DNA of 64,000 bases from Octopus sinensis (lineage: Eukaryota), in the NCBI RefSeq assembly GCF_006345805.1, contig NC_042998.1, positions 154,876,001 through 154,940,000 on the forward strand, written 5' to 3'. Of this stretch, positions 1-48,800 are shown one piece after another. The notes beneath the pieces are model-generated. The model was not told the origin of the DNA and made no database searches. It saw nothing but the letters and a program-made list of their open reading frames with translations. How positions within the stretch are numbered: position 1 is the stretch's first letter; every line of letters starts with the position of its first letter. The position numbers and the translations under genes were made by a program.

Positions 1-241
1 AGCTGGCAAACGGCCACGAACGGATGGTGCTTTTACGTGTCACCGTTACGGGGGCCAGACAGAGCTGGCAAACGGCCACAAACGGATGGTGCTTTTACGT
101 GTCACCAGCACGGGGGCCAGGCCAGGCTGGCAACGAACACAAACGGATGGTGCTTTTACGTGCCACCGACACGGGGGCCAGACAGGGCTGGCAAACGGCT
201 ACGAACGGATGGTGCTTTTACGTGTCACCTGCACGGGGGCC
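1..241. repeat. Tandem array of ~62 bp units (about 4 copies), related to a dispersed SINE-like family
   Basis: GGATGGTGCTTTTACGTG recurs at ~22, 84, 146 and 207; related sequence lies on the opposite strand in elements at ~37960-38200 and 39262-39470. Confidence 0.8.
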
Positions 242-996
242 CTGATGTTGACTTGGTCACCTAGGTAACGGAAACTATCAACTACTTCTAGCTTTTCTCC
301 CTGGAAAGTGACGGAAGTTGGTCTCAGAGCATTTTCAGTGTTAATTGTTCCTGAGCATCTGCCACATACAAAAACCATCTTCCTAGATAGCCTTCCTTTG
401 ACATTGCTGCACCTCTTATGTGTCCATAGCTTACACTTGGTGCATCTTATAGAGTTTCTACCTACACCTTTTCTACAGATCGAGCAGGGCCATCTACCTG
501 AAGGCGTTTCTGATTGGTCTACCTTCCTACTTATTAGGACTTTGGTTTTGGCTAGGTTGATTCTAAGGCCCTTCGATTCTAAACCTTGTTTCCATACCTG
601 AAACTTCTCCTCTAGTTCTGATAGAGTCTCAGCAATTAGAGCAAGGTCATCAGCATAGAGGAGCTCCCAGGGGCATCCTGTCTTGAATTCCTCCGTTATT
701 GCCTGGAGGACTATGATAAATAGGAGGGGACTGAGGACTGAACCTTGGTGGACCCCAACCTCTACCCTGAATTCTTCACTGTACTCGGTGCCAACCCTCA
801 CCTTACTAGCAGCGTCTCTGTACATGGCTTGTACAGCTTTCACTAACCATTCATCTATCCCTAGTTTCCTCATTGACCACCAGATGAGGGATCGGGGGAC
901 CCTGTCGAAGGCTTTCTCCATATCAACAAAAGCCAGGTATAGGGGCTTGTCTTTGGCTAGGTATTTCTCTTGCAGCTGTTTTACCATGAAAATAGC
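242..996 (-). mobile_element. RTE-clade LINE reverse transcriptase fragment
   Basis: ORF 199-987 has AFVDMEKAFDRV, GVHQGSVLSPLLF, LLYADDLAL, an inserted Cys-rich (PHD-like) segment and FRYLG. Confidence 0.9.
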
Positions 997-997
997 A

Positions 998-1185
998 TCA
1001 TTTGACTGTAGCTATAGTGGGGCACCACCTTAAAGGGCTTTAGTTGAAGAAATCAATCCCAGGATTTATTCTTTGTAAGCCTAGTACTTATTCTATCAGC
1101 CTTTTTTGCTGAACTACTAAGTTATGGAGGCATAAACACACCAGCATCAGTTGTCAAGCGATAATGAGATGGGTAGGGACAAAGA
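998..1185. mobile_element. SINE fragment; second copy at ~51785-51945
   Basis: Shared CATTT..CTG..GC.AT.CTGG.GCACCACCTT..ACTAAGTTA..GG...TAAACACACCA..ATC.GTTGTCAAGC between the two loci. Confidence 0.6.
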
Positions 1186-7029: not shown

Positions 7030-7410
7030 AAATGTAATTTACAAATGCACGGTCCTTAATCTATTACACAACTCTACAGCCATATGCATAGGATCAACCA
7101 AAAATTTTAAGCAACGGTATGCTATTCTTTTAGATATGATAAACATAGTTATTCTACAACACTCGCCAACCACATACATCATCTCAAAAATGCAAATATA
7201 CCCTATACTCTATCATGGTCCATACTGGACTCAGGACTTCCCTACCGAGGTCAACGCTCAACTTGCAAGCTTTGCTTGAAGGAGGCACTCCACATGTTAA
7301 AGCACAACTCTCTAATACTGCTAAATAAACATAACGAGGCACTAAGCACATGCAACCACCGCTTTTATCACACATTCAAATTCTACCACAAATCCAAATG
7401 CCAAAATACA
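7030..7410 (+). mobile_element. Penelope-like element GIY-YIG endonuclease relic
   Basis: NVIYKCTV...ICIGSTKNFKQRY, a frameshift, then SFRYDKHSYSTTLANHIHHLK...WSIL...CKLCLKE...LLNKHNE..STCNH. Confidence 0.85.
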
Positions 7411-7504
7411 GTGCATTTCCACAATACCCCTTAGGTAATCCCAATAACCTTATAAATCTACATTCTATCTTCTAATCCATATCTAGTTCCTCACATGTAC
7501 AACC

Positions 7505-8625: not shown

Positions 8626-9443
8626 GGTTGGTTGGCATCCTTTCTGTCTCGGGAGACAATGGAGTTGCGCATAAAGTAGTCTAGTCCGGCTTTTATATTT
8701 CATGTCCTGATACATTTCCTGCTGAGGCTGTGTAGTCCTATCCTGGACCTCCCTCTGGCAGGTACCGCAAATGTAGCGAAGACTGGTTGTAATGCCATAG
8801 TCTCTTGTTGATGTCTCTTCTTTTCTTTCCATTTGTCCTCTCTCTCTCTGTCACTCCTTTGTATTCCCTCTTTTACGGTACATCGCCATTCTCCACAGTT
8901 GCCGGCAACTGCCTCCCAACTGCTAATATTGATGTTGCAGGCCTTCATGTCCCTTTTGCAAACATCCTTGTAATGTAAGATCAGTCTACCCACAGACCTA
9001 GTACCCCTAGCAAGCTCTCCGTAGAGTATGTCCTTGGGGATTCTGCCATCTTTCATACGGCTAACATGCCCAAGCCATCTCATACGTCTTTGTGTGAGGA
9101 GTGCAAACATGCTTGGTATTCCTGCTTGCCTGAGGACATCTTTGTTGGGGATATGATTCTGCCATTTGATGCGGAGGATTTTTTGGAGGCAGCGCAGGTG
9201 AAAGATGTTTAGGCGACGCTCTTGGCGTGTGTATAGCGTCCAGGTTTCACTTCCATACAGTAGAGTGCTTAGTACACATGCCTGGTAGATCTTCATTTTC
9301 GTGGTCTTGGTGAGCTCGTTGTCCCAAGCTCGTTTGGAGAGTTGGGCCATCGCAGCAGCTGCCTTGCCAATGTGTATATTGAGCTCAGCGTCAAGGGATA
9401 GGTTGTAGGTGACGGTAGAGCCCAGATAGGTAAACTTCTCCAC
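8626..9443 (-). mobile_element. 5'-truncated RTE (BovB-like) LINE 3' end with (CCAA)n tail
   Basis: FTYLGS, STLLYGSETW, RRMRWLGHV.RM.DGRIPKDILYGEL motifs; the same 3' end recurs at 43020-43170. Confidence 0.9.
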
Positions 9444-14338: not shown

Positions 14339-15558
14339 CGAGGGGTGTTCAATAAGTAATGCCCCTGACCCACTTCCCATAGCAGTAGAGCAACGAAACT
14401 TGGCACAGTTATTAGTCTTTTTCTACATAGGAACCACCCAGAGTTACGCATTTCTCCCATTGTTTGATTCAGCTCTGAAGACCGTTTTTGTAGAAGACCC
14501 CAGCTTGGTCCTTCAACCACGACGTGACTTCAGAAATCAAGGCTGCATCATCTGGGAAACGCTTTCCTTTCAAAAACAACTTCATGGCTGGGAAGAGGTG
14601 AAAATCAGAGGGTGCACTTCAGGAGATGGGGATGAGTTCATAGCCGCACGCCTGTGCTTCTGATCTAGCAACACGCGAGTTGTGGATTGGAGCGTTGTCC
14701 TGCAGGAGGAGGATGCCTTTGCTGATCTTGCCCCGCCTTATGATTTTGATAACTTCTCTTAATTTCCTCAAAAGTGAAGCATAATAGACTCCTGTAATTG
14801 TGGCACCCTTTGCCAAGAAATCTGTCATCACTACTCCGTCCTGGTCCCAGAAGACTGTGAGCATGACCTTGCCAGCGGAGGGCTGCACCCTTGCCTTCTT
14901 TGGAGGAGGTGAGTCACGGTGCTTCCACTGCATTGACTGGGCTTTGGTCTCTGGATCATAGTGATGGACCCAGGTTTCATCCTGTGTAATCAGCCTTTTG
15001 AAAAATTTTGACTCATCTTCTTGGCACATCTTCAAATTCATCCTCGCGCTATCGACGTGTTCTTGCTTCTGGAAAGGTGTGAGCAGCCTGGGAATCCATC
15101 TGGCAGACACCTTTTGCATATGCAAATGGTCATGAATGATAGTTTCCACAGACCCGGTACTAATCTTGACCTCATGGGCTATTTGGCGAATAGTTATGCG
15201 TCGATCTTCCAAAATGGCAGCCTCAACTTGACGGACAGATGCCTCATCAATGGCAGATCTGGGAGCTGTTTCCACAAAGTTCCGACCATGTTTGAATTCA
15301 CGATGCCAGCGTTTTACAAGGTCATATGATGGAGCATCATCACCATAAGTTACTTTTATTTCATCAAAAGTCTCCCGTGGTGTGCGTCCTTTCAAATACA
15401 AAAACCGCATCACTGCTCGACACTCAACAGGCTCCGTTTCACACTTGACTCAGTTCAAACACCTGTAAATCAGAAACCACAATTAGTTCAGAGCAAAATT
15501 TCAGCTAGATCAAACAACTGCAAGTGGGTCAGAGGCATTACTTATTGAACGCCCCTCG
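14339..15558 (-). mobile_element. Relatively young mariner element (irritans-like) with internal deletion
   Basis: Near-perfect TIRs CGAGGGG(T/C)GTTCAATAAGTAATGCC with TA flanks on both sides. Confidence 0.95.
14619..15413 (-). pseudogene. Mariner transposase ORF (264 aa) lacking the YSPDLAPSD motif
   Basis: WIPRLL, ITQDETWVHHYDPETK and LQDNAPIH are present; the frame ends before the third catalytic Asp. Confidence 0.88.
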
Positions 15559-19529: not shown

Positions 19530-21084
19530 CACTCAGGACGAAGTCGAACGCATTATTCAAGGCCTCTATGTCAACAAGGGTCACAGCCCTGACGGCATAC
19601 ACCCACAGGTTATCAAAGCGTTGGCTCCGGTCATCTGTGAACCTTTAACACTTCTATTCAATATGTCATTGGCGATGGGTGTTATACCTGCAGACTGGAG
19701 AACAGCGATAATCTGCCCAATTTTCAAGAAAGGGACCTGCGAAGATCCACTTAACTACTAACTTCGAAACCATCCTTAAGAAAAGTATGTTGCTCCACCT
19801 CCAAAACACAGCCTCTATCTCTGATTCCCAACACGGCTTCGTGCCGGAGAGATCATGTTTGACCAACTTACTGGTAATGGAAGGATTGGTGACGCGTATC
19901 CTGGATGATGGTGATGCTGTTGACATCGTTTTATTGGACTTTGCTAAAGCTTTTGACTCGGTTAACCACCGCCTATTACTTGTCAAGCTTCAAGCATATA
20001 GTTTCCATCCGGATATTGTATGATGGGTTGGTGCCTTCCTCTCAGATCGCTCCTTCCAAGTCCAAGTTAATGGTTCGCTGTCCGACGTCTCCAGTGCGAG
20101 CAGTGGCATGCCTCAAGGTTCAGTGCTTGGGCTCTTATTGTTTTTAGTCTTCATAAATGACTTGCCCAACAACCTCACGCAACACACCCTTCTATTTGCC
20201 GATGATGTCAAACTGGTTGCTCCTCGCGGTGATATAAATGATCTTTGTCGATGCCGCCACCAAGTTTGGAGATGGTCTAACGAATGGGACCTGTGTCTGA
20301 ACGTGTCAAAGTGCTGTTATCTGCCTGTTGGCTCTTCTCCTGCAACTCAACTTGATTTTGAGCTGGGTCGTCTGCTGCTGGAGAGGACCGACCAGGTAAA
20401 GGACCTGGGTATCTTGGTGGATTCTTCATTTTCGCCTTCGGCTCAGTGTGTCCATGCTGCCAACAAAGCATGCGGAGTACTGTTTTTCATTCGACGGTCA
20501 TTCGGAATGCTCACAGCAGCCATATTCCTACCGCTCTATGTCACACTGGTGAGACCCATATTGGAGTACGGGATTCAAGCCTCTTCTCCTTATCTCCTCA
20601 AAGACATACATCATCTCAAAAGAGTCCAGAAGCTGGCTACCCGCATGGTTCTTGGTCTCAAGCATTTGTCTTATTAAGAAAGGCTGAAGACGCTCGACCT
20701 TTATTCTCTAGAAAAACGATGACGCCGTGGTGATCTCATTCTTGCTCACAACATCATAAGCGGAAAGTGTAACCTCTCGAAAGAGCCGTTCTTCACTCCT
20801 GCTCCAGAGCGTCGGCTGCGGGGTCACTCCGAAAAGCTCTATCTGCAACGATTTCATCTCAATTGAAGGAGAGGGGCTTTCCCCGTCCGGGTTGCGGATC
20901 CGTGGAATAAGCTGCTGGATGAGATAGTGAAGATGCTGACGACCGCTCGGTTCAAAGTCTCTCTTGACCAGAAATGGCCTGAACTCTTTGCATGAACACC
21001 CTCCCTGTACATAACTCTATGTCCCCCTACATGGCCTTGCTTTTTGCTTTTTGAGCCAAAAAATTAACTTAACTTAACTTAACT
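19530..21084 (+). mobile_element. 5'-truncated CR1/L2-group LINE with (AACTT)n tail
   Basis: QHGFVPERSCLTNL, LDFAKAFDSVNH, PQGSVLG.LLF, LFADDVK, KDLG and VRPILEY motifs; few stops; tail TAACTTAACTTAACTTAACT. Confidence 0.92.
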
Positions 21085-27086: not shown

Positions 27087-27126
27087 CATACATATATATA
27101 ACAAATAACAAAAAAAGGAATTGTGG

Positions 27127-27210
27127 TTCACTACAGCTGTTTCAGACATGTTTTTATTGATGAACAGAAGTGTTACAACATGCAAAAACAACTCATTTTC
27201 ATTGGGTGAA
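27127..27210 (-). ncRNA. Degenerate hammerhead ribozyme motif in a (TA)n-flanked Penelope-like end
   Basis: Minus strand TTCAC-CCAATGA-[long stem II]-GAAA-CAGCTG-TA-GTGAA; core G5 is mutated to A. Confidence 0.55.
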
Positions 27211-27859
27211 TACAGGTAAGTATTAAACATTTTGAACATCTCAAGAACAAGTAGATAGTGTTGCTTGACTCTACTGACTCAAGTTTGGTCAGAGAGTGAA
27301 GATTTTAGGTTAGCATCAAGTTTATAAAGAGGAACACGTTAAGGGGCCTGGATCTGGGAGTGGAGTGTATGGGGAAATACAAGGAAGTAAATGGAGGGAG
27401 AAATACTGAAGCATAATCTTGCTTGATCTCATAAAGAGTTATAAATACGATACATGGTTATTCAGTCAGAGGGAAAGAGCAAGAGAAAGCGAGAGAGAGT
27501 GGAAGAGAGCAAGAGTGCAAGAGAGAGCAGGAGAGACATGATGGCAAAGTACCAGGGCATACACACAAGGAATGGGGATCAGATTATAAATGGGAGGGTA
27601 GAGTAGAGCAAGAGATAGATAGATGGTGGAGAAATGCCGGGAAATTCCATAAAGGTGCAGGGGTCAGAATATAGATAGTAGGGTATTGCCAAAGGTGCAT
27701 GAGTAAGGAGTAGAGACTTCACATAAATACAAAGAGTGTGAGGGTTGGTGAAACCTGGGTATACAGAGAGGGTGGGGGACAACAGGATAGCAATGATGCA
27801 GTGAACAGAGTGGTAAGGACAGGATTGGGGAGCAAGAGGTAAACATAAGCATAGTGCAT

Positions 27860-35775: not shown

Positions 35776-35776
<1 letters not shown>
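34146..35776 (+). mobile_element. Non-autonomous Helitron with Pif1-like helicase remnant
   Basis: 5' A|TC(TC)TATATAAAAGGCAG plus (GTCT)n; 3' imperfect GC-rich hairpin at 35749-35765 then CTAG|T; QFPVKLCFTMSINKSQGQ...CFAHGQLYVGCS at 35130-35343. Confidence 0.88.
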
Positions 35777-35820
<44 letters not shown>

Positions 35821-35859
35821 TAAAAAATGGAGTTAACGCAGGTTTAAACAAGTATTTTT

Positions 35860-35946
35860 ACTTTCTACATATGTTTCAAAAATTCCACTGATACTTATTC
35901 AAAAGAATAAAAGGTATAAACAATGCAATCTTCTCTTCGGGAAAGT
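35860..35946 (-). ncRNA. Type I hammerhead ribozyme motif (left arm copy)
   Basis: Reverse complement of 37038-37124. Confidence 0.75.
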
Positions 35947-36494
35947 GAAAAAACGAAACTTGTCAATACGACATTTTAGCAAAAAATGATGGATTCGTAT
36001 AGCGATAGACAGAACGCTATTAATATTGTTTAAAAAAACGTTATATGATATAATGTCATAAGTAGCTAACAGAAAGAGTTGGGATATTAATAGTGAATGT
36101 TAAATATAAAGGAAATTAAAGTCTAAACTATATATAATGATAGAGACTACTTATATGCACTAAAAGTATGTTTCTGCCAATGCTTACATCTGTATGCTCG
36201 TTCTATAACCGTGTTTACTAGAGTAATTTTAGAAAAAATAATGAAAAATAGCTCAGAATTGCAGAGAAGACAGAATTTCTTGCCTTTGTCATATGGTATC
36301 GAAATTGAGAGGATCAACCATTCTAAATGAAATTGTTCATTATGGTCTTTTAAATCCCAAATCAGTTTGCTGAGACTGGTACTATTCCGTTTATTTCTAT
36401 CCCTAAATGTTGAGTAATGGATAGAAATTCTCTTAGATAACTCTAACGATGTGCTTCCAATGTAAAATCGTACTTTATTACGAGTACCAGTGTA

Positions 36495-36834
36495 TACACT
36501 GGTATATAAAGTACGATTTTACATTGGAAGCACATCGTTAGAGTTATCTAAGAGAATTTCTATCCATTACTCAACATTTAGGGATAGAAATAAACGGAAT
36601 AGTACCGGTCTCAGCAAACTGATTTGGGATTTAAAAGACCATAATGAACAATTTCATTTAGAATGGTTGATCCTCTCAATTTCGATACCATATGACAAAG
36701 GCAAGAAATTCTGTCTTCTCTGCAATTCTGAGCTATTTTTCATTATTTTTTCTAAAAATACTCTAGTAAACACGGTTATAGAACGAGCATACAGATGTAA
36801 GCATTGGCAGAAACATACTTTTAGTGCATATAAG
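36495..36834 (+). pseudogene. 5'-truncated Penelope-type GIY-YIG endonuclease; mirrored on the minus strand at ~36150-36494
   Basis: FYIGST...KRISIHYSTFR...STGLSKLIWDLK...W.IL...PYD...CLLCNSE...LVN...CKH. Confidence 0.85.
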
Positions 36835-37037
36835 TAGTCTCTATCATTATATATAGTTTAGACTTTAATTTCCTTTATATTTAACATTCACTATTAATAT
36901 CCCTACTCTTTCTGTTAGCTACTTATGACGTTATATCATATAACGTTTTTTTAAACAATATTAATAGCTTTCTGTCTATCGCTATACGAATCCATCATTT
37001 TTTGCTAAAATGTCGTATTGACAAGTTTCGTTTTTTC

Positions 37038-37124
37038 ACTTTCCCGAAGAGAAGATTGCATTGTTTATACCTTTTATTCTTTTGAATAAGTATCAGTAGA
37101 ATTTTTGAAACATATGTAGAAAGT
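37038..37124 (+). ncRNA. Type I hammerhead ribozyme motif with CCGAAGA core and enlarged loop II (right arm copy)
   Basis: ACTTTC-CCGAAGA-GAAGATT[42 nt]AATTTTT-GAAA-CATATG-TA-GAAAGT. Confidence 0.78.
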
Positions 37125-37311
37125 AAAAATACTTGTTTAAACCTGCGTTAACTCCATTTTTTATTCATATCATTCAAATATTCAACGTAAACACGAAGTT
37201 TCAACCTTTATAAACAAGGAGTTACAACATCTTTACTTGTGAGATTTTTGCTGCCCTGGTAACTATTCATTCATTTATCCGTGTTAATTGTTAACAAGGT
37301 AAAATACACTC

Positions 37312-37364
<53 letters not shown>

Positions 37365-45314: not shown

Positions 45315-48300
45315 TGAAAGGAAATGGGTGGAGCCTCCTCCTCCTCATGAGCTGATTAATGATACATCTAGTGATGGTGTCACTATAAAAACACTGGTAA
45401 TTGCACAACCTGATAATCGCGAACTCATATGAGTGACAATGAAAAAACAAAATATTGTGAGTAATGAAACTGAAGCCAATGATGGTGACAGTGTTACACC
45501 CGGTAGGCTAAGAGATTCTGGTCCAGCTCCAGCCTGTCGATATCCAGAAATAGATCACCACACATGACATAGATGGCGCAAGCAAATTAATGCTGTGGTC
45601 ATGGAGTGTTACTAACTGAGCAGCCCGGTAGATGTAAATGGTGCTCAAATTAGGGGTTACCAACAACATATGTATGATCATAGGAGAGAAAAGGGATTGT
45701 TTCAACTCACAGAACAGAGACTTTGTGATGAAGCTAGAGCAATAGGGAAAAATTGTTGGTTCACAGCAGAGATAACAATGAAAATACAGCTCTTACTAAT
45801 AAGTGTAATCCATAGCACAGGAAAGGAGCAGTGGTAGTTTACTTGATGAGAGACATATAGATGATCTAAAAGATGACAATAAAACTAATGGCGACATGAC
45901 AGATGAACAAATGGCAATCTATGACAGAATAAAAGCAAGACTACAGGAGAACGATAGCGACATTATTTGCAACCTTAAAAAGGTTGATTGATAGAAATTG
46001 CACCAAGAATCGAAATGAAATTCTGAAATACATCAGAACAAACATCACAGAAACAAATAATTTGATCAAGGCAGTAAGTATTGTTGTAGCAGAAACGTGG
46101 GTGTTGATGTCAAGAAAAAGAAACATAATGGGAGTGACAAAAGAAAAGATCCATGGTGGAAAAGAAGAATCCAGGTAGGGTTAGACATGCTCTTGAAGGA
46201 AATCTCTGTATTAGACCAAAAAGAGCAAGGGGAGCTTAAAAGCAAACAAAAATACAGGGTGCTGTAAAGGAAGTATAATATTGTAAGAAAGGGCCTGAAA
46301 GTAGTAGTGGAGGAACTGAAACAGTGCCTCATTGCAAAGAAAGCAAAGGTGGTAAGATATGACCAAAGAATGAAGGGTTACCATCAGAATAGGTCATTCA
46401 GAGTAGATCAGAAGAGATTCTATAAAGAGGTGAAAAGTTGATACCAGATAACATTGAAAGTCAAAAGTTTTGGAGTGACATCTGGAGCAAAGCCAAGGTG
46501 CATAAGAAGGATGTTGAATGGTTGCAAGAACTGAAACAAACAGTAGTCTGTCCAAAACAGGCAGAACTAGTCATTTCAGTTAAGGAAGTGAAGGAAATCA
46601 GCAAAAAACGAGCAACTGGAAGGCCCTGGGACCAGATGGAGTTCAAGGCTACTGGAACAAAAGATTTGGTGAATGTCATGCACAAAGAGCTGCACAACTC
46701 AACACCTTGATAAATACCGACCAAGGAACACCAGAGTGGTTGACATTGGGTAGGACAGTGTTGTGCCTGAAAAACATTGAAAAAGGCAATACGATAAACA
46801 ATTACAGGCCGATATCCTGTTTGCCACTTATGTGGAAGTTATTGAGTGGAATACTCGCAGAGTCAATGTATGAATGTCTGGAAAAAGATGGAGTCCTGCC
46901 ACATGGGCAGAAGGGTTCCAAGCATAAGTGCAGAGGTACCAAGGATAGACAAAACTGTACTTAGAGACTGCAAGAGGAGGAAAAGTAACTTAGCCATGTC
47001 ATGGATCGACTATCGTAAGGCATATGATATGATCCCACATATTTGGATTTGGAGTGTATGAACCTATTTGGTATTGCATCAAATGTTGAGTGACTGCTTG
47101 GTAAAAATATGGCGAATTGGAGGACGGACCTGACAGCATGCGGAAGAAGTTTAGGGACAGTAGAAATTTGGAGGGGCATCTTCCAAGGGGACTGCCTGTC
47201 CCCACTGATCTTTGTACTGTGCTTGATACCACTAACACTGATTCTGAGGAAAGCAAAAGCTGGGTATGTATTCAAAAGCCGCCAGCAAAAAGTCAACCAT
47301 TTGTTATTCATAGATGACCTCAAACTTTATGGTAAAGATGAAGCCCAAGTCAGTTCCCTTGCTGATACAGCATATACCTTCAGTGCTGATATCAGAATGG
47401 AGTTTGGACTGAGAAAGTGTGGTGTCTTGAAGAGAGGCAAAATCAAATGTATGGATGGGCTAATGATACCATTGGGGGAGGTTATCAAGCAGATAGAAAA
47501 GACAGGCTATAAGTACTTGGGGATACTGGAAATGGATAAATTGATGGAGAAAGAAATGACTGAAAAATTTAAGGTGGAGTACTTGTGCGGACTGAGACTG
47601 ATCCTTAGGTTGAAATTAAATGGATGGAATAAGATTGAAGCTATCAACACTTGGGCTCCTTAGATATGGAGCAGGGGTAATCACATGGACAGTAGACGAA
47701 CTAAACAGCTTAGACAGAAAGACAAGGGAGTTGCTAACTAGATATGGGTTACTCCACCCAAAAAGTGACACAGACAGACTGTATGTACCAAGAAAAAGAG
47801 GGGGAAGAGGACTTACTGAATGTGAACACAGCATTAGAGCAGAAGAAAACAACATAGCATGGTATGTAAAGAATGCCACAGAACTGCTATTATTAGGAGT
47901 AGGAAGGTCAAGCTTGTGTAGGATGAAAGATTGCAAAGATAAAGCACTATACAAGAAATTGAAAATGAATGAAACTGAAAATAGGTGGGTAAAGAAAAGA
48001 AAGCATAGTCAATTTCATAGGGATGTTGAAGATAGACAGACAGAGAAAAAAGATGGCTGTGGATGACTAAAAGTGATTTAAAACTGGAAACAGAGGCTCT
48101 AATCTGTGCTGTCCAAGAGCAAGCACTAAGAACAAACTATATAAAATACAGAATAGACAACATAGCAGAAATCTGTGGACAAAACAGTGAAACTGTATGG
48201 CATATTACCAGCCACTAGCCCAGAAGGAATATAAGAGATGCCACGACAATATAGCCAGGCTTGTCCATTGGACACCCTGCAACAAGTATGGACTTGACAG

Positions 48301-48800
48301 AGCAAAAAATTGGTACGACCACAAACCTGAAGGCATCATCGAAAATAGAAATGCAAAGATCCTATGGGATTTTATGATTCAGTCTGACCATGAGATAGAG
48401 AACAGGAAGCCAGACATAATCTTAATTGAGAAAGAAAACAAACTATGCTGGATCATAGATATAGCATGCTCAGCTGACAACAAGGTATGCAATAAGGAAG
48501 AAAGAAAAGTTGAGAGATATGACAGGTTAGCTTGGAAAGTTAAGCAGTTGTGGTCGATGAAAAAGGTAGCAGTAGTACCAGTAACTGTTGGAGCCCTGGG
48601 AACAGTGAGCAAAAATCTCGAGAAGTACATGGAACAAATAAGGGTGGAGCACTTGCAGAAAACAGCACTGTTTGGAACTGCTCGAATACTCTGGAAGGTG
48701 CTTGAAAAATAAGAGGTGTTACCTTAGTTCATTGGTAGTGAACAGCTGGCAGTGTAGTACATCTCCAGCGTTAGAAGCTGTGCAAAGGCAATGATGATGA
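45315..48800 (+). mobile_element. Near full-length degenerate R4/Dong-clade LINE (RT plus C-terminal restriction-like endonuclease) in a (TAA)n microsatellite
   Basis: NYRPISCLP, WIDYRKAYDM.PH, GIFQGD.LSPL.F, HLLFIDDLKLY, YKYLG, (R)HDNIAR.VHW, KPDI...IIDIAC..D...K..RY..L; (AAT)n on both flanks. Confidence 0.9.

What the first reader, a model, noticed from the sequence alone, without database searches (positions are those of the whole stretch)
37038..37124. Variant hammerhead ribozyme: U4C core, palindromic stem III, 42-nt loop II
Seen: stem I ACTTTC/GAAAGT, core CCGAAGA instead of CUGANGA, stem II GAAGATT/AATTTTT with G-U pairs, GAAA, self-complementary CATATG and a GUA site; mirrored at 35860-35946. 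Known: minimal hammerheads with a short palindromic stem III tend to cleave as dimers. Inference: this family would be missed by strict CUGANGA searches, and the enlarged loop II is unusual for minimal Penelope hammerheads.
Basis: partly seen in the sequence, partly recalled or inferred. Interest (0 to 1): 0.72.

Follow-up and report, generated by a model that had tools for sequence, protein, structure and literature searches.

The report
Eroding hammerhead in young Penelope lineage
This is a hammerhead (self-cutting RNA) motif at the end of a Penelope-type jumping gene; the youngest copies of that gene family carry a changed core letter that likely weakens cutting, yet they kept spreading, so the family would allow a direct test of whether these elements need their ribozyme.

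Summary
The motif is real: a type I hammerhead in the pseudo-LTR of a Hydra-like Penelope element, here a 5'-truncated, inverted-repeat copy in (TA)n. Stem I, the CCGAAGA core, the palindromic stem III and GUA are as described. The '42-nt loop II' is wrong: it folds as an interrupted 21-22 bp helix II, and its proximal 12 pairs covary across sister families.

U4C is a lineage state (437 exact copies), not the family state. 372 matches carry CUGAGGA or CUGAAGA, and 0 of 70 sampled sister-family motifs have C4. Subfamilies form a ladder: canonical (3.5% and 1.3% private divergence), then U4C, C17A, G10.1-U11.1 and a shorter stem I (0.5%). The newest step has intact ORFs.

Most likely this is a weakened dimer-cleaving ribozyme under relaxed constraint. 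No cleavage or RNA data were obtained, and copy ends show no clear footprint at the cut site. U4C is known from a viroid, with low in vitro activity. The scan noted U4C hammerheads before on other DNA (unchecked notes). Verdict: new variant of a known kind, moderate interest.

The parts
37038..37124 (+). Type I hammerhead, right-arm copy: C4 core, G10.1-U11.1, GUA site; predicted cut between A37118 and G37119
37044..37050 (+). Core strand C3-A9, CCGAAGA (U4C at 37045)
   Evidence: lineage state
37051..37106 (+). Extended helix II: 37051-57/37100-06, G.G, C.A (private A37098; C-G in the family), 37060-63/37094-97, 37067-70/37090-93, 37074-79/37084-89, UUUU loop 37080-83
37110..37117 (+). Palindromic stem III segment ACAUAUGU; 8-bp intermolecular duplex predicted at -7.0 kcal/mol
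35860..35946 (-). Mirror hammerhead copy in the left arm (family-type G at the 37098 position)
36506..37170 (+). Right arm of the inverted repeat = 3' end of a Penelope-like element (endonuclease C-terminus, 3' UTR, pLTR)
35814..36478 (-). Left, inverted arm; 6 differences from the right arm in 665 nt
36506..36837 (+). 5'-truncated GIY-YIG endonuclease coding remnant (YIG, CxxC, CxH motifs)
36479..36505 (.). 27-nt inversion junction
37171..37322 (+). One-sided tail, the same sequence as the element's 5' UTR after the upstream pLTR; second common 3' end of copies
35776..35817 (.). (TA)n target, left side
37318..37360 (.). (TA)n target, right side

Best explanation
The motif is a type I hammerhead in the pseudo-LTR of a Hydra-like Penelope retroelement whose youngest lineage fixed U4C and then further non-consensus changes, so it is likely a weakened ribozyme that would cut slowly, and only as a dimer, after A37118, under likely relaxed constraint. 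Shown: full-length elements carry two direct copies about 2,860 nt apart around a 775-aa RT-endonuclease ORF; older subfamilies and sister families have the canonical CUGA / G10.1-C11.1 / GUC form; C4 copies are the majority of the family's exact matches and the least diverged. Inferred: the two pLTR copies pair through ACAUAUGU to form a double hammerhead that releases a unit-length RNA; U4C lowers the rate; retrotransposition went on because efficient cleavage is not limiting. The window copy itself is a truncated fold-back insertion and is unlikely to act: a read-through RNA would pair arm to arm.
For: Element context: (L031 and L270 with two direct hammerheads 2,860 and 2,863 nt apart; L270 and L271 with intact ORFs in the newest subfamily). 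Counts: 437 C4A7, 264 U4G7, 108 U4A7, 11 C4G7. Sisters: 0 of 70 C4; 983 CUGAUGA against 26 CCGAUGA in one sister context. Ladder linked to sites outside the ribozyme. Private divergence falls from 3.5% (n=17) and 1.3% (n=22) to 0.8% (6), 0.7% (4) and 0.5% (9). The nearest relative shares 17 of 17 informative outside sites with the canonical end. Structure: 86.7% of cells paired, 7 of 18 pairs with two-sided changes, slid controls 40-48%. Relaxed constraint: 9 fixed changes in 87 ribozyme nt against 12 in 246 UTR nt (p=0.08). Literature: U4C 'considerably decreases activity in vitro' yet supports viroid infectivity (PMC3088659, passage); single mutants of the CUGA turn show low activity (PMC9901934, passage); metazoan PLE hammerheads cut weakly and need dimers (PMC4209133). 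Recent RNA-mediated activity of the newest subfamily: L269 carries a spliced host mRNA piece.
Against: There are no cleavage or RNA data. There is no clear genomic footprint: 1 of 100 tail-bearing copies starts at 37119, and a genome-wide junction search gave 8 matches, about 6 independent junctions, split evenly between U4 and C4 lineages. 3' end architecture is similar in all lineages. Tree support is low (4 of 95 branches starred) and distant outgroups root it at the young end; 14 of 15 diverged copies are uninformative. Samples for the young classes are small. Two post-U4C changes improve the fold (perfect palindrome restored, distal hairpin lengthened; predicted open-core share 0.10 to 0.34), which fits continued selection. 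A17 (12 of 26 rows) and G-U at 10.1-11.1 (2 families) occur in other Hydra hammerheads, so only U4C is a true core deviation.
Confidence: 0.55

Rival explanations
1. The ribozyme is dead in the C4 lineage: U4C was the disabling hit, later changes are neutral decay, and the element spreads without any self-cleavage.
For: Further consensus losses follow U4C in order. The ribozyme does not evolve more slowly than the UTR. Naiads proliferate without canonical hammerheads, and the authors suggest hammerheads may simply parasitise PLEs (PMC8557442, passage). No lineage difference in copy ends.
Against: All other core positions are kept in the lineage consensus, although the time is too short for this to weigh much. 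Two changes improve the fold. U4C keeps enough activity in a viroid.
Confidence: 0.25
2. The C4 form is a fully working variant: tertiary contacts from the long helix II, the element's protein or the later changes compensate for U4C, or slower cutting is selected to keep longer-than-unit templates.
For: The extended helix II is kept across families 65-75% identical. The C4/A17 forms have a higher predicted open-core share than canonical forms (0.32-0.38 against 0.06-0.09). GUA did best co-transcriptionally in one viroid study (PMC1636495, passage). Unchecked scan notes report U4C in other repeat families.
Against: No rescue of CUGA mutants in pairwise mutagenesis except the C3-G8 swap. My loose search for independent C4 families was inconclusive (370 hits against 744 control). 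In one sister context C4 is sporadic (26 against 983).
Confidence: 0.15
3. The motif is a chance fold or a private decayed copy.
For: Weak whole-motif z-scores; no Rfam hit; A37098 is private and breaks a pair.
Against: Hundreds of exact copies, canonical relatives by the thousand, covariation, and the typical pLTR position.
Confidence: 0.02

Closest known systems
Hammerheads of Hydra-clade PLEs (Craig et al. 2021, PMC8557442; seen: passages, section 11, supplement parts 1, 2, 52 and one supplement search)
   Same: 3' pLTR position, palindromic stem III, A17 common, (TA)n insertion, inverted 5'-truncated copy, one-sided tail; protein with RW[K/L], DKT, CxxC and CxH motifs.
   Different: All 26 Hydra rows of File S2 have a CUGA core and loop 2 of at most 10 nt; here C4 and a 56-nt, 21-22 bp helix II. 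The linker CxCX5C is absent. The tail is about 150 nt rather than 30-40. The listed Hydra-1_oBim hammerhead has a different sequence, so this is another family.
Minimal and palindromic type I hammerheads of metazoan PLEs (Cervera and De la Pena 2014, PMC4209133; seen: parts 1-2 of 4)
   Same: Type I, two copies in the flanking repeats, palindromic positions 15.2-16.2, dimer model, low expected activity.
   Different: Their helix II is 6-8 bp, with a bulged base after A9 and conserved G10.1-C11.1; the core variant they report is U3-A8. No U4C in the parts read.
U4C viroid hammerhead (Ambros and Flores 1998, cited in PMC3088659; the original was not held, only the citing passage was seen)
   Same: Same core substitution; reduced in vitro activity compatible with replication.
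   Different: A viroid variant, not a fixed state of a genomic retroelement lineage with its canonical ancestors in the same genome.
sCYDV-RPV (+) hammerhead (table note in PMC1636495, passage seen)
   Same: Long helix II of 5+4+4 bp with internal loops and a 4-nt cap; A at position 17.
   Different: Plant virus satellite RNA with a 6-bp helix III; no U4C noted.

Membership tests
Hammerhead ribozyme, type I | Three helices around C3-U4-G5-A6-N7-G8-A9, G12-A13-A14, A15.1-U16.1, H17 | tested here: met
   All present except U4 (C) in this lineage; fully canonical in ancestral subfamilies
Hammerhead ribozyme, type I | U4 of the CUGA turn | tested here: not met
   C4 in the window and in 437 exact copies
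Hammerhead ribozyme, type I | Covariation in stems I and II | tested here: met
   7 of 18 pairs with two-sided change; 0/500 shuffles reach % paired or the covariation score, but the count of such pairs is not above shuffle (158/500); relatedness caveat
Hammerhead ribozyme, type I | Match to Rfam hammerhead models | tested here: not met
   No hit in the window at E<=1; none in 8 loci (7 canonical, 1 C4) at E<=10
Hammerhead ribozyme, type I | Site-specific self-cleavage | not testable with these tools
   Genomic footprint inconclusive; no reads obtained
EN+ Penelope-like element | Single ORF with RT and C-terminal GIY-YIG, pLTRs, inverted 5'-truncated copies | tested here: met
   L270: 775 aa, YRDD and YIG motifs, two direct hammerheads plus an inverted copy; 87 homologs at 26-40% identity; Pfam gave no family
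Hydra clade PLE | RWK and DKT motifs, C-terminal CxxC and CxH, length under 3 kb, (TA)n targets | tested here: met
   RWL, DKT, CLLC..E, CKH; 2.86-kb unit; (TA)n after the 3' ends
Hydra clade PLE | Linker CxCX5C | tested here: not met
   Absent in L270, present in 60 of 87 homologs
Hydra clade PLE | Placement in the RT phylogeny with reference Hydra proteins | not tested
   Reference proteins were not available as tool input; filed as Hydra-like
Non-LTR retrozyme | Short non-coding tandem repeats with one hammerhead per unit | tested here: not met
   The motif follows a coding endonuclease and belongs to an autonomous element

The most novel reading that the evidence does not exclude
The youngest, most successful lineage of an autonomous Penelope element has lost or strongly down-tuned its hammerhead in dated steps while still transposing. 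This would be a natural demonstration that PLE ribozyme cleavage is dispensable or selected to be slow, with ancestral, intermediate and derived ribozymes available side by side, and with a previously undescribed long-helix-II hammerhead class present in thousands of copies that Rfam misses.
Probability: 0.35. Interest if true: 0.65.

Novelty: new variant of a known kind. Interest (0 to 1): 0.45.

Why it matters
The role of hammerheads in Penelope-like elements is stated to be unclear (PMC8557442, passage). This family gives a graded natural series, canonical to U4C to U4C+A17+G-U+short stem I, each step tied to a subfamily with an estimated relative age. One cleavage assay across the series, and a retrotransposition reporter with swapped ribozymes, would test whether cleavage is needed. 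It also shows that a large class of long-helix-II hammerheads escapes Rfam models and short-spacer descriptors.

Tried and rejected
Rfam: no hammerhead hit for variant or canonical copies. Pfam: no family for the element protein. '42-nt loop': rejected. 'U4C is a private mutation': rejected. 'U4C is ancestral, or shared with sister families': raised, rejected. 'CUGA copies arise from CpG decay of C4': explains only a few (3 of 76 A17 copies have T4); the U4 classes have their own linked sites. Cleavage footprint in copy starts: no pile-up (1 of 100); 8 matches genome-wide, of which one is a mutated intact motif and two are a local duplicate; my rough expectation of about 2 is too uncertain to call an excess. 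Lineage difference in tails: none clear (14/30, 9/30, 14/30). Independent fixation of U4C in other families of this genome: inconclusive. Tree rooting by distant outgroups: conflicting (one row, L090_722m, was left out, and outgroup rows were projected onto the window arm, which biases them). A third weak model hit at 27122-27214 (19.7 bits) was not followed. Literature searches without a report of this family or of fixed U4C in PLEs; subscription journals are not covered; the supplements of PMC4209133 and PMC3088659 were not opened and could list similar variants. No RNA evidence was obtained, so expression and cleavage in vivo stay open.

Full report
OBSERVATION. Both copies fold by minimum energy into the hammerhead three-way junction with the core unpaired. 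The supposed 42-nt loop II is paired: after the 7-bp proximal stem come 4 bp (5 in the family, because A37098 is private; 37098 is G in every other scored hit), 4 bp and 6 bp, closed by UUUU. The mirror copy is the other arm of a 665-bp inverted repeat whose arms differ at 6 sites. Rfam gives no hammerhead hit, and none for 7 canonical relatives either.

CONTEXT. Each arm holds the C-terminus of a GIY-YIG endonuclease followed about 200 nt later by the motif; both ends lie in (TA)n. The genome is a 2.7-Gb animal assembly; a cephalopod host is an inference (best named homolog from Argonauta). Full-length copies carry one ORF with RT and endonuclease between two direct copies of the motif: L031 (2,860 nt apart) and L270 (2,863 nt, intact 775-aa ORF, plus an inverted copy). 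This is the layout described for Penelope-like elements (PMC8557442). The protein has RWL, DKT, CxxC and CxH like the Hydra clade but lacks the linker CxCX5C found in 60 of 87 homologs. I call it Hydra-like; no RT tree with references was built.

U4C IS A LINEAGE STATE. Exact 21-mer counts in the genome: CCGAAGA 437, CUGAGGA 264, CUGAAGA 108 (a few from sister families), CCGAGGA 11, CCGAUGA 26. The CCGAUGA copies examined belong to sister families at about 62-77% identity, where they are sporadic: 26 against 983 CUGAUGA. A pattern in the 3' half found 3,586 sister motifs; of 90 fetched, 70 had a readable 5' half and none had C4. All 26 Hydra rows in the published table have CUGA.

THE LADDER. 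Among 182 distinct copies covering the motif, ribozyme states are linked to diagnostic sites outside it (112 long copies). Order: U4/C11.1/C17; the same with G7; C4; A17 with the palindrome restored and one more distal pair; U11.1 (window type); loss of the outer stem I pair. Private divergence of pattern-picked copies: 3.5% (17), 1.3% (22), 0.8% (6), 1.4% and 1.1% (2 and 3), 0.7% (4), 0.5% (9). The tree on columns outside the ribozyme is a ladder with weak support and needs 7 changes for U4/C4; distant outgroups attach at the young end and the nearest relative at the canonical end. That relative shares 17 of 17 informative sites with the oldest class; 14 other diverged copies are split. The age gradient, the nearest relative and parsimony with sister families together make U4 ancestral. 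The newest class has intact ORFs (L270, L271), and one copy, L269, carries a spliced host mRNA fragment 99-100% identical to two exons, which shows recent copying through RNA.

STRUCTURE ACROSS FAMILIES. On 49 aligned motifs (44 distinct), stem I and the proximal 12 pairs of helix II are 86.7% paired, with two-sided changes at 7 of 18 pairs; slid controls give 40-48%. The number of such pairs does not beat the shuffle (158/500), and rows are related. The distal hairpin was left out of this count because the families are shifted by one base. It appears in the folds of the sister representatives, and the full extended helix in the minimum-energy or centroid fold of 6 of 8 of them.

MECHANISM. 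Shown: two direct copies per full-length element, an 8-nt palindrome with a predicted duplex of -7.0 kcal/mol, and a monomer stem III that costs energy. Inferred from the published dimer model (PMC4209133): the two copies form a double hammerhead and release a unit-length RNA that may circularise. Nearly all copies extend 52 or about 200 nt past the cut site (87 of 90), so the template is uncut, tandem or circular. U4C lowers activity in vitro yet supports a viroid (PMC3088659); CUGA single mutants are weak (PMC9901934); GUA is natural and active (PMC1636495); A17 and G-U at 10.1-11.1 occur in other Hydra motifs. Along the lineage the ribozyme took 9 fixed changes in 87 nt against 12 in 246 UTR nt (p=0.08), so no extra constraint is visible; two changes improve the fold. 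I put a weakened but not dead ribozyme at 0.55, dead at 0.25 and fully compensated at 0.15. The window copy is probably inert: its partner is antisense, and a read-through RNA would fold arm to arm (inference).

AGAINST OR UNRESOLVED. No RNA data. No pile-up of copy starts at 37119 (1 of 100 examined, of 146 matches). A genome-wide junction search gave 8 matches, about 6 independent, in both lineages; this second test was prompted by scan note e1-8669002. Scan notes report U4C in other repeat families; my loose search could not confirm independent fixation.

PAPERS SEEN. PMC4209133 parts 1-2 of 4; bioRxiv 10.64898/2026.07.22.740005 part 1 of 5; PMC8557442 passages, section 11, supplement parts 1, 2, 52 and one search; PMC3088659 passages and section 8; PMC7229834, PMC1636495, PMC3907566 and PMC9901934 passages; Ambros and Flores 1998 not seen. 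Hammerhead numbering is from established knowledge.

VERDICT. A real PLE hammerhead and a new variant of a known kind. Its value lies in the dated series of natural variants more than in this single copy. Interest 0.45.

Noticed in passing
L269:4062-4246 (-), G000:C20:16427561-16427745: A newest-subfamily copy whose near-complete ORF is fused in frame at its 5' end to about 185 nt of a spliced host mRNA (K319L-like PKD domain, PF22352). Source exons at C4:110006462-577 (100%) and C4:110008390-458 (99%), 1.8-kb GT-AG intron absent, ATAT microhomology at the junction: likely a template switch of the PLE RT onto host mRNA.
   Followed up: yes
L270:2710-5034 protein, before the YIG motif: The linker CxCX5C of Hydra elements is missing, yet copies still end in (TA)n, which argues against that motif being required for TA targeting.
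   Followed up: partly
window 37170 and about 37322: Copies end at two fixed TA-like sites (87 of 90 sampled), consistent with priming by annealing to (TA)n targets.
   Followed up: partly
L179-L268 and 3,586 genome sites: A large clade of sister families with canonical core and long interrupted helix II, often with a UUCG-containing cap; the five tested were missed by Rfam.
   Followed up: partly
window 7111-7434 (+): Second GIY-YIG remnant of another Hydra-like family (CxxC, CxH); no hammerhead found near it by the descriptor scan.
   Followed up: partly
L407 and L411: Two loci on different contigs share the same inversion junction at the predicted cut site, possibly a small re-mobilised derivative.
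   Followed up: no
window 27122-27214 (-): Weak match to my model (19.7 bits) with GAAACAGCTGTA, a palindromic stem III also seen in another hammerhead family; probably a decayed copy.
   Followed up: no
window 14619-15449 (-), 199-1011 (-), 8700-9443 (-), 20024-20677 (+), 47094-48712: Decayed mariner-like transposase and LINE reverse-transcriptase fragments, recognised by eye from the ORF list; labels are recalled, not from a family search.
   Followed up: no
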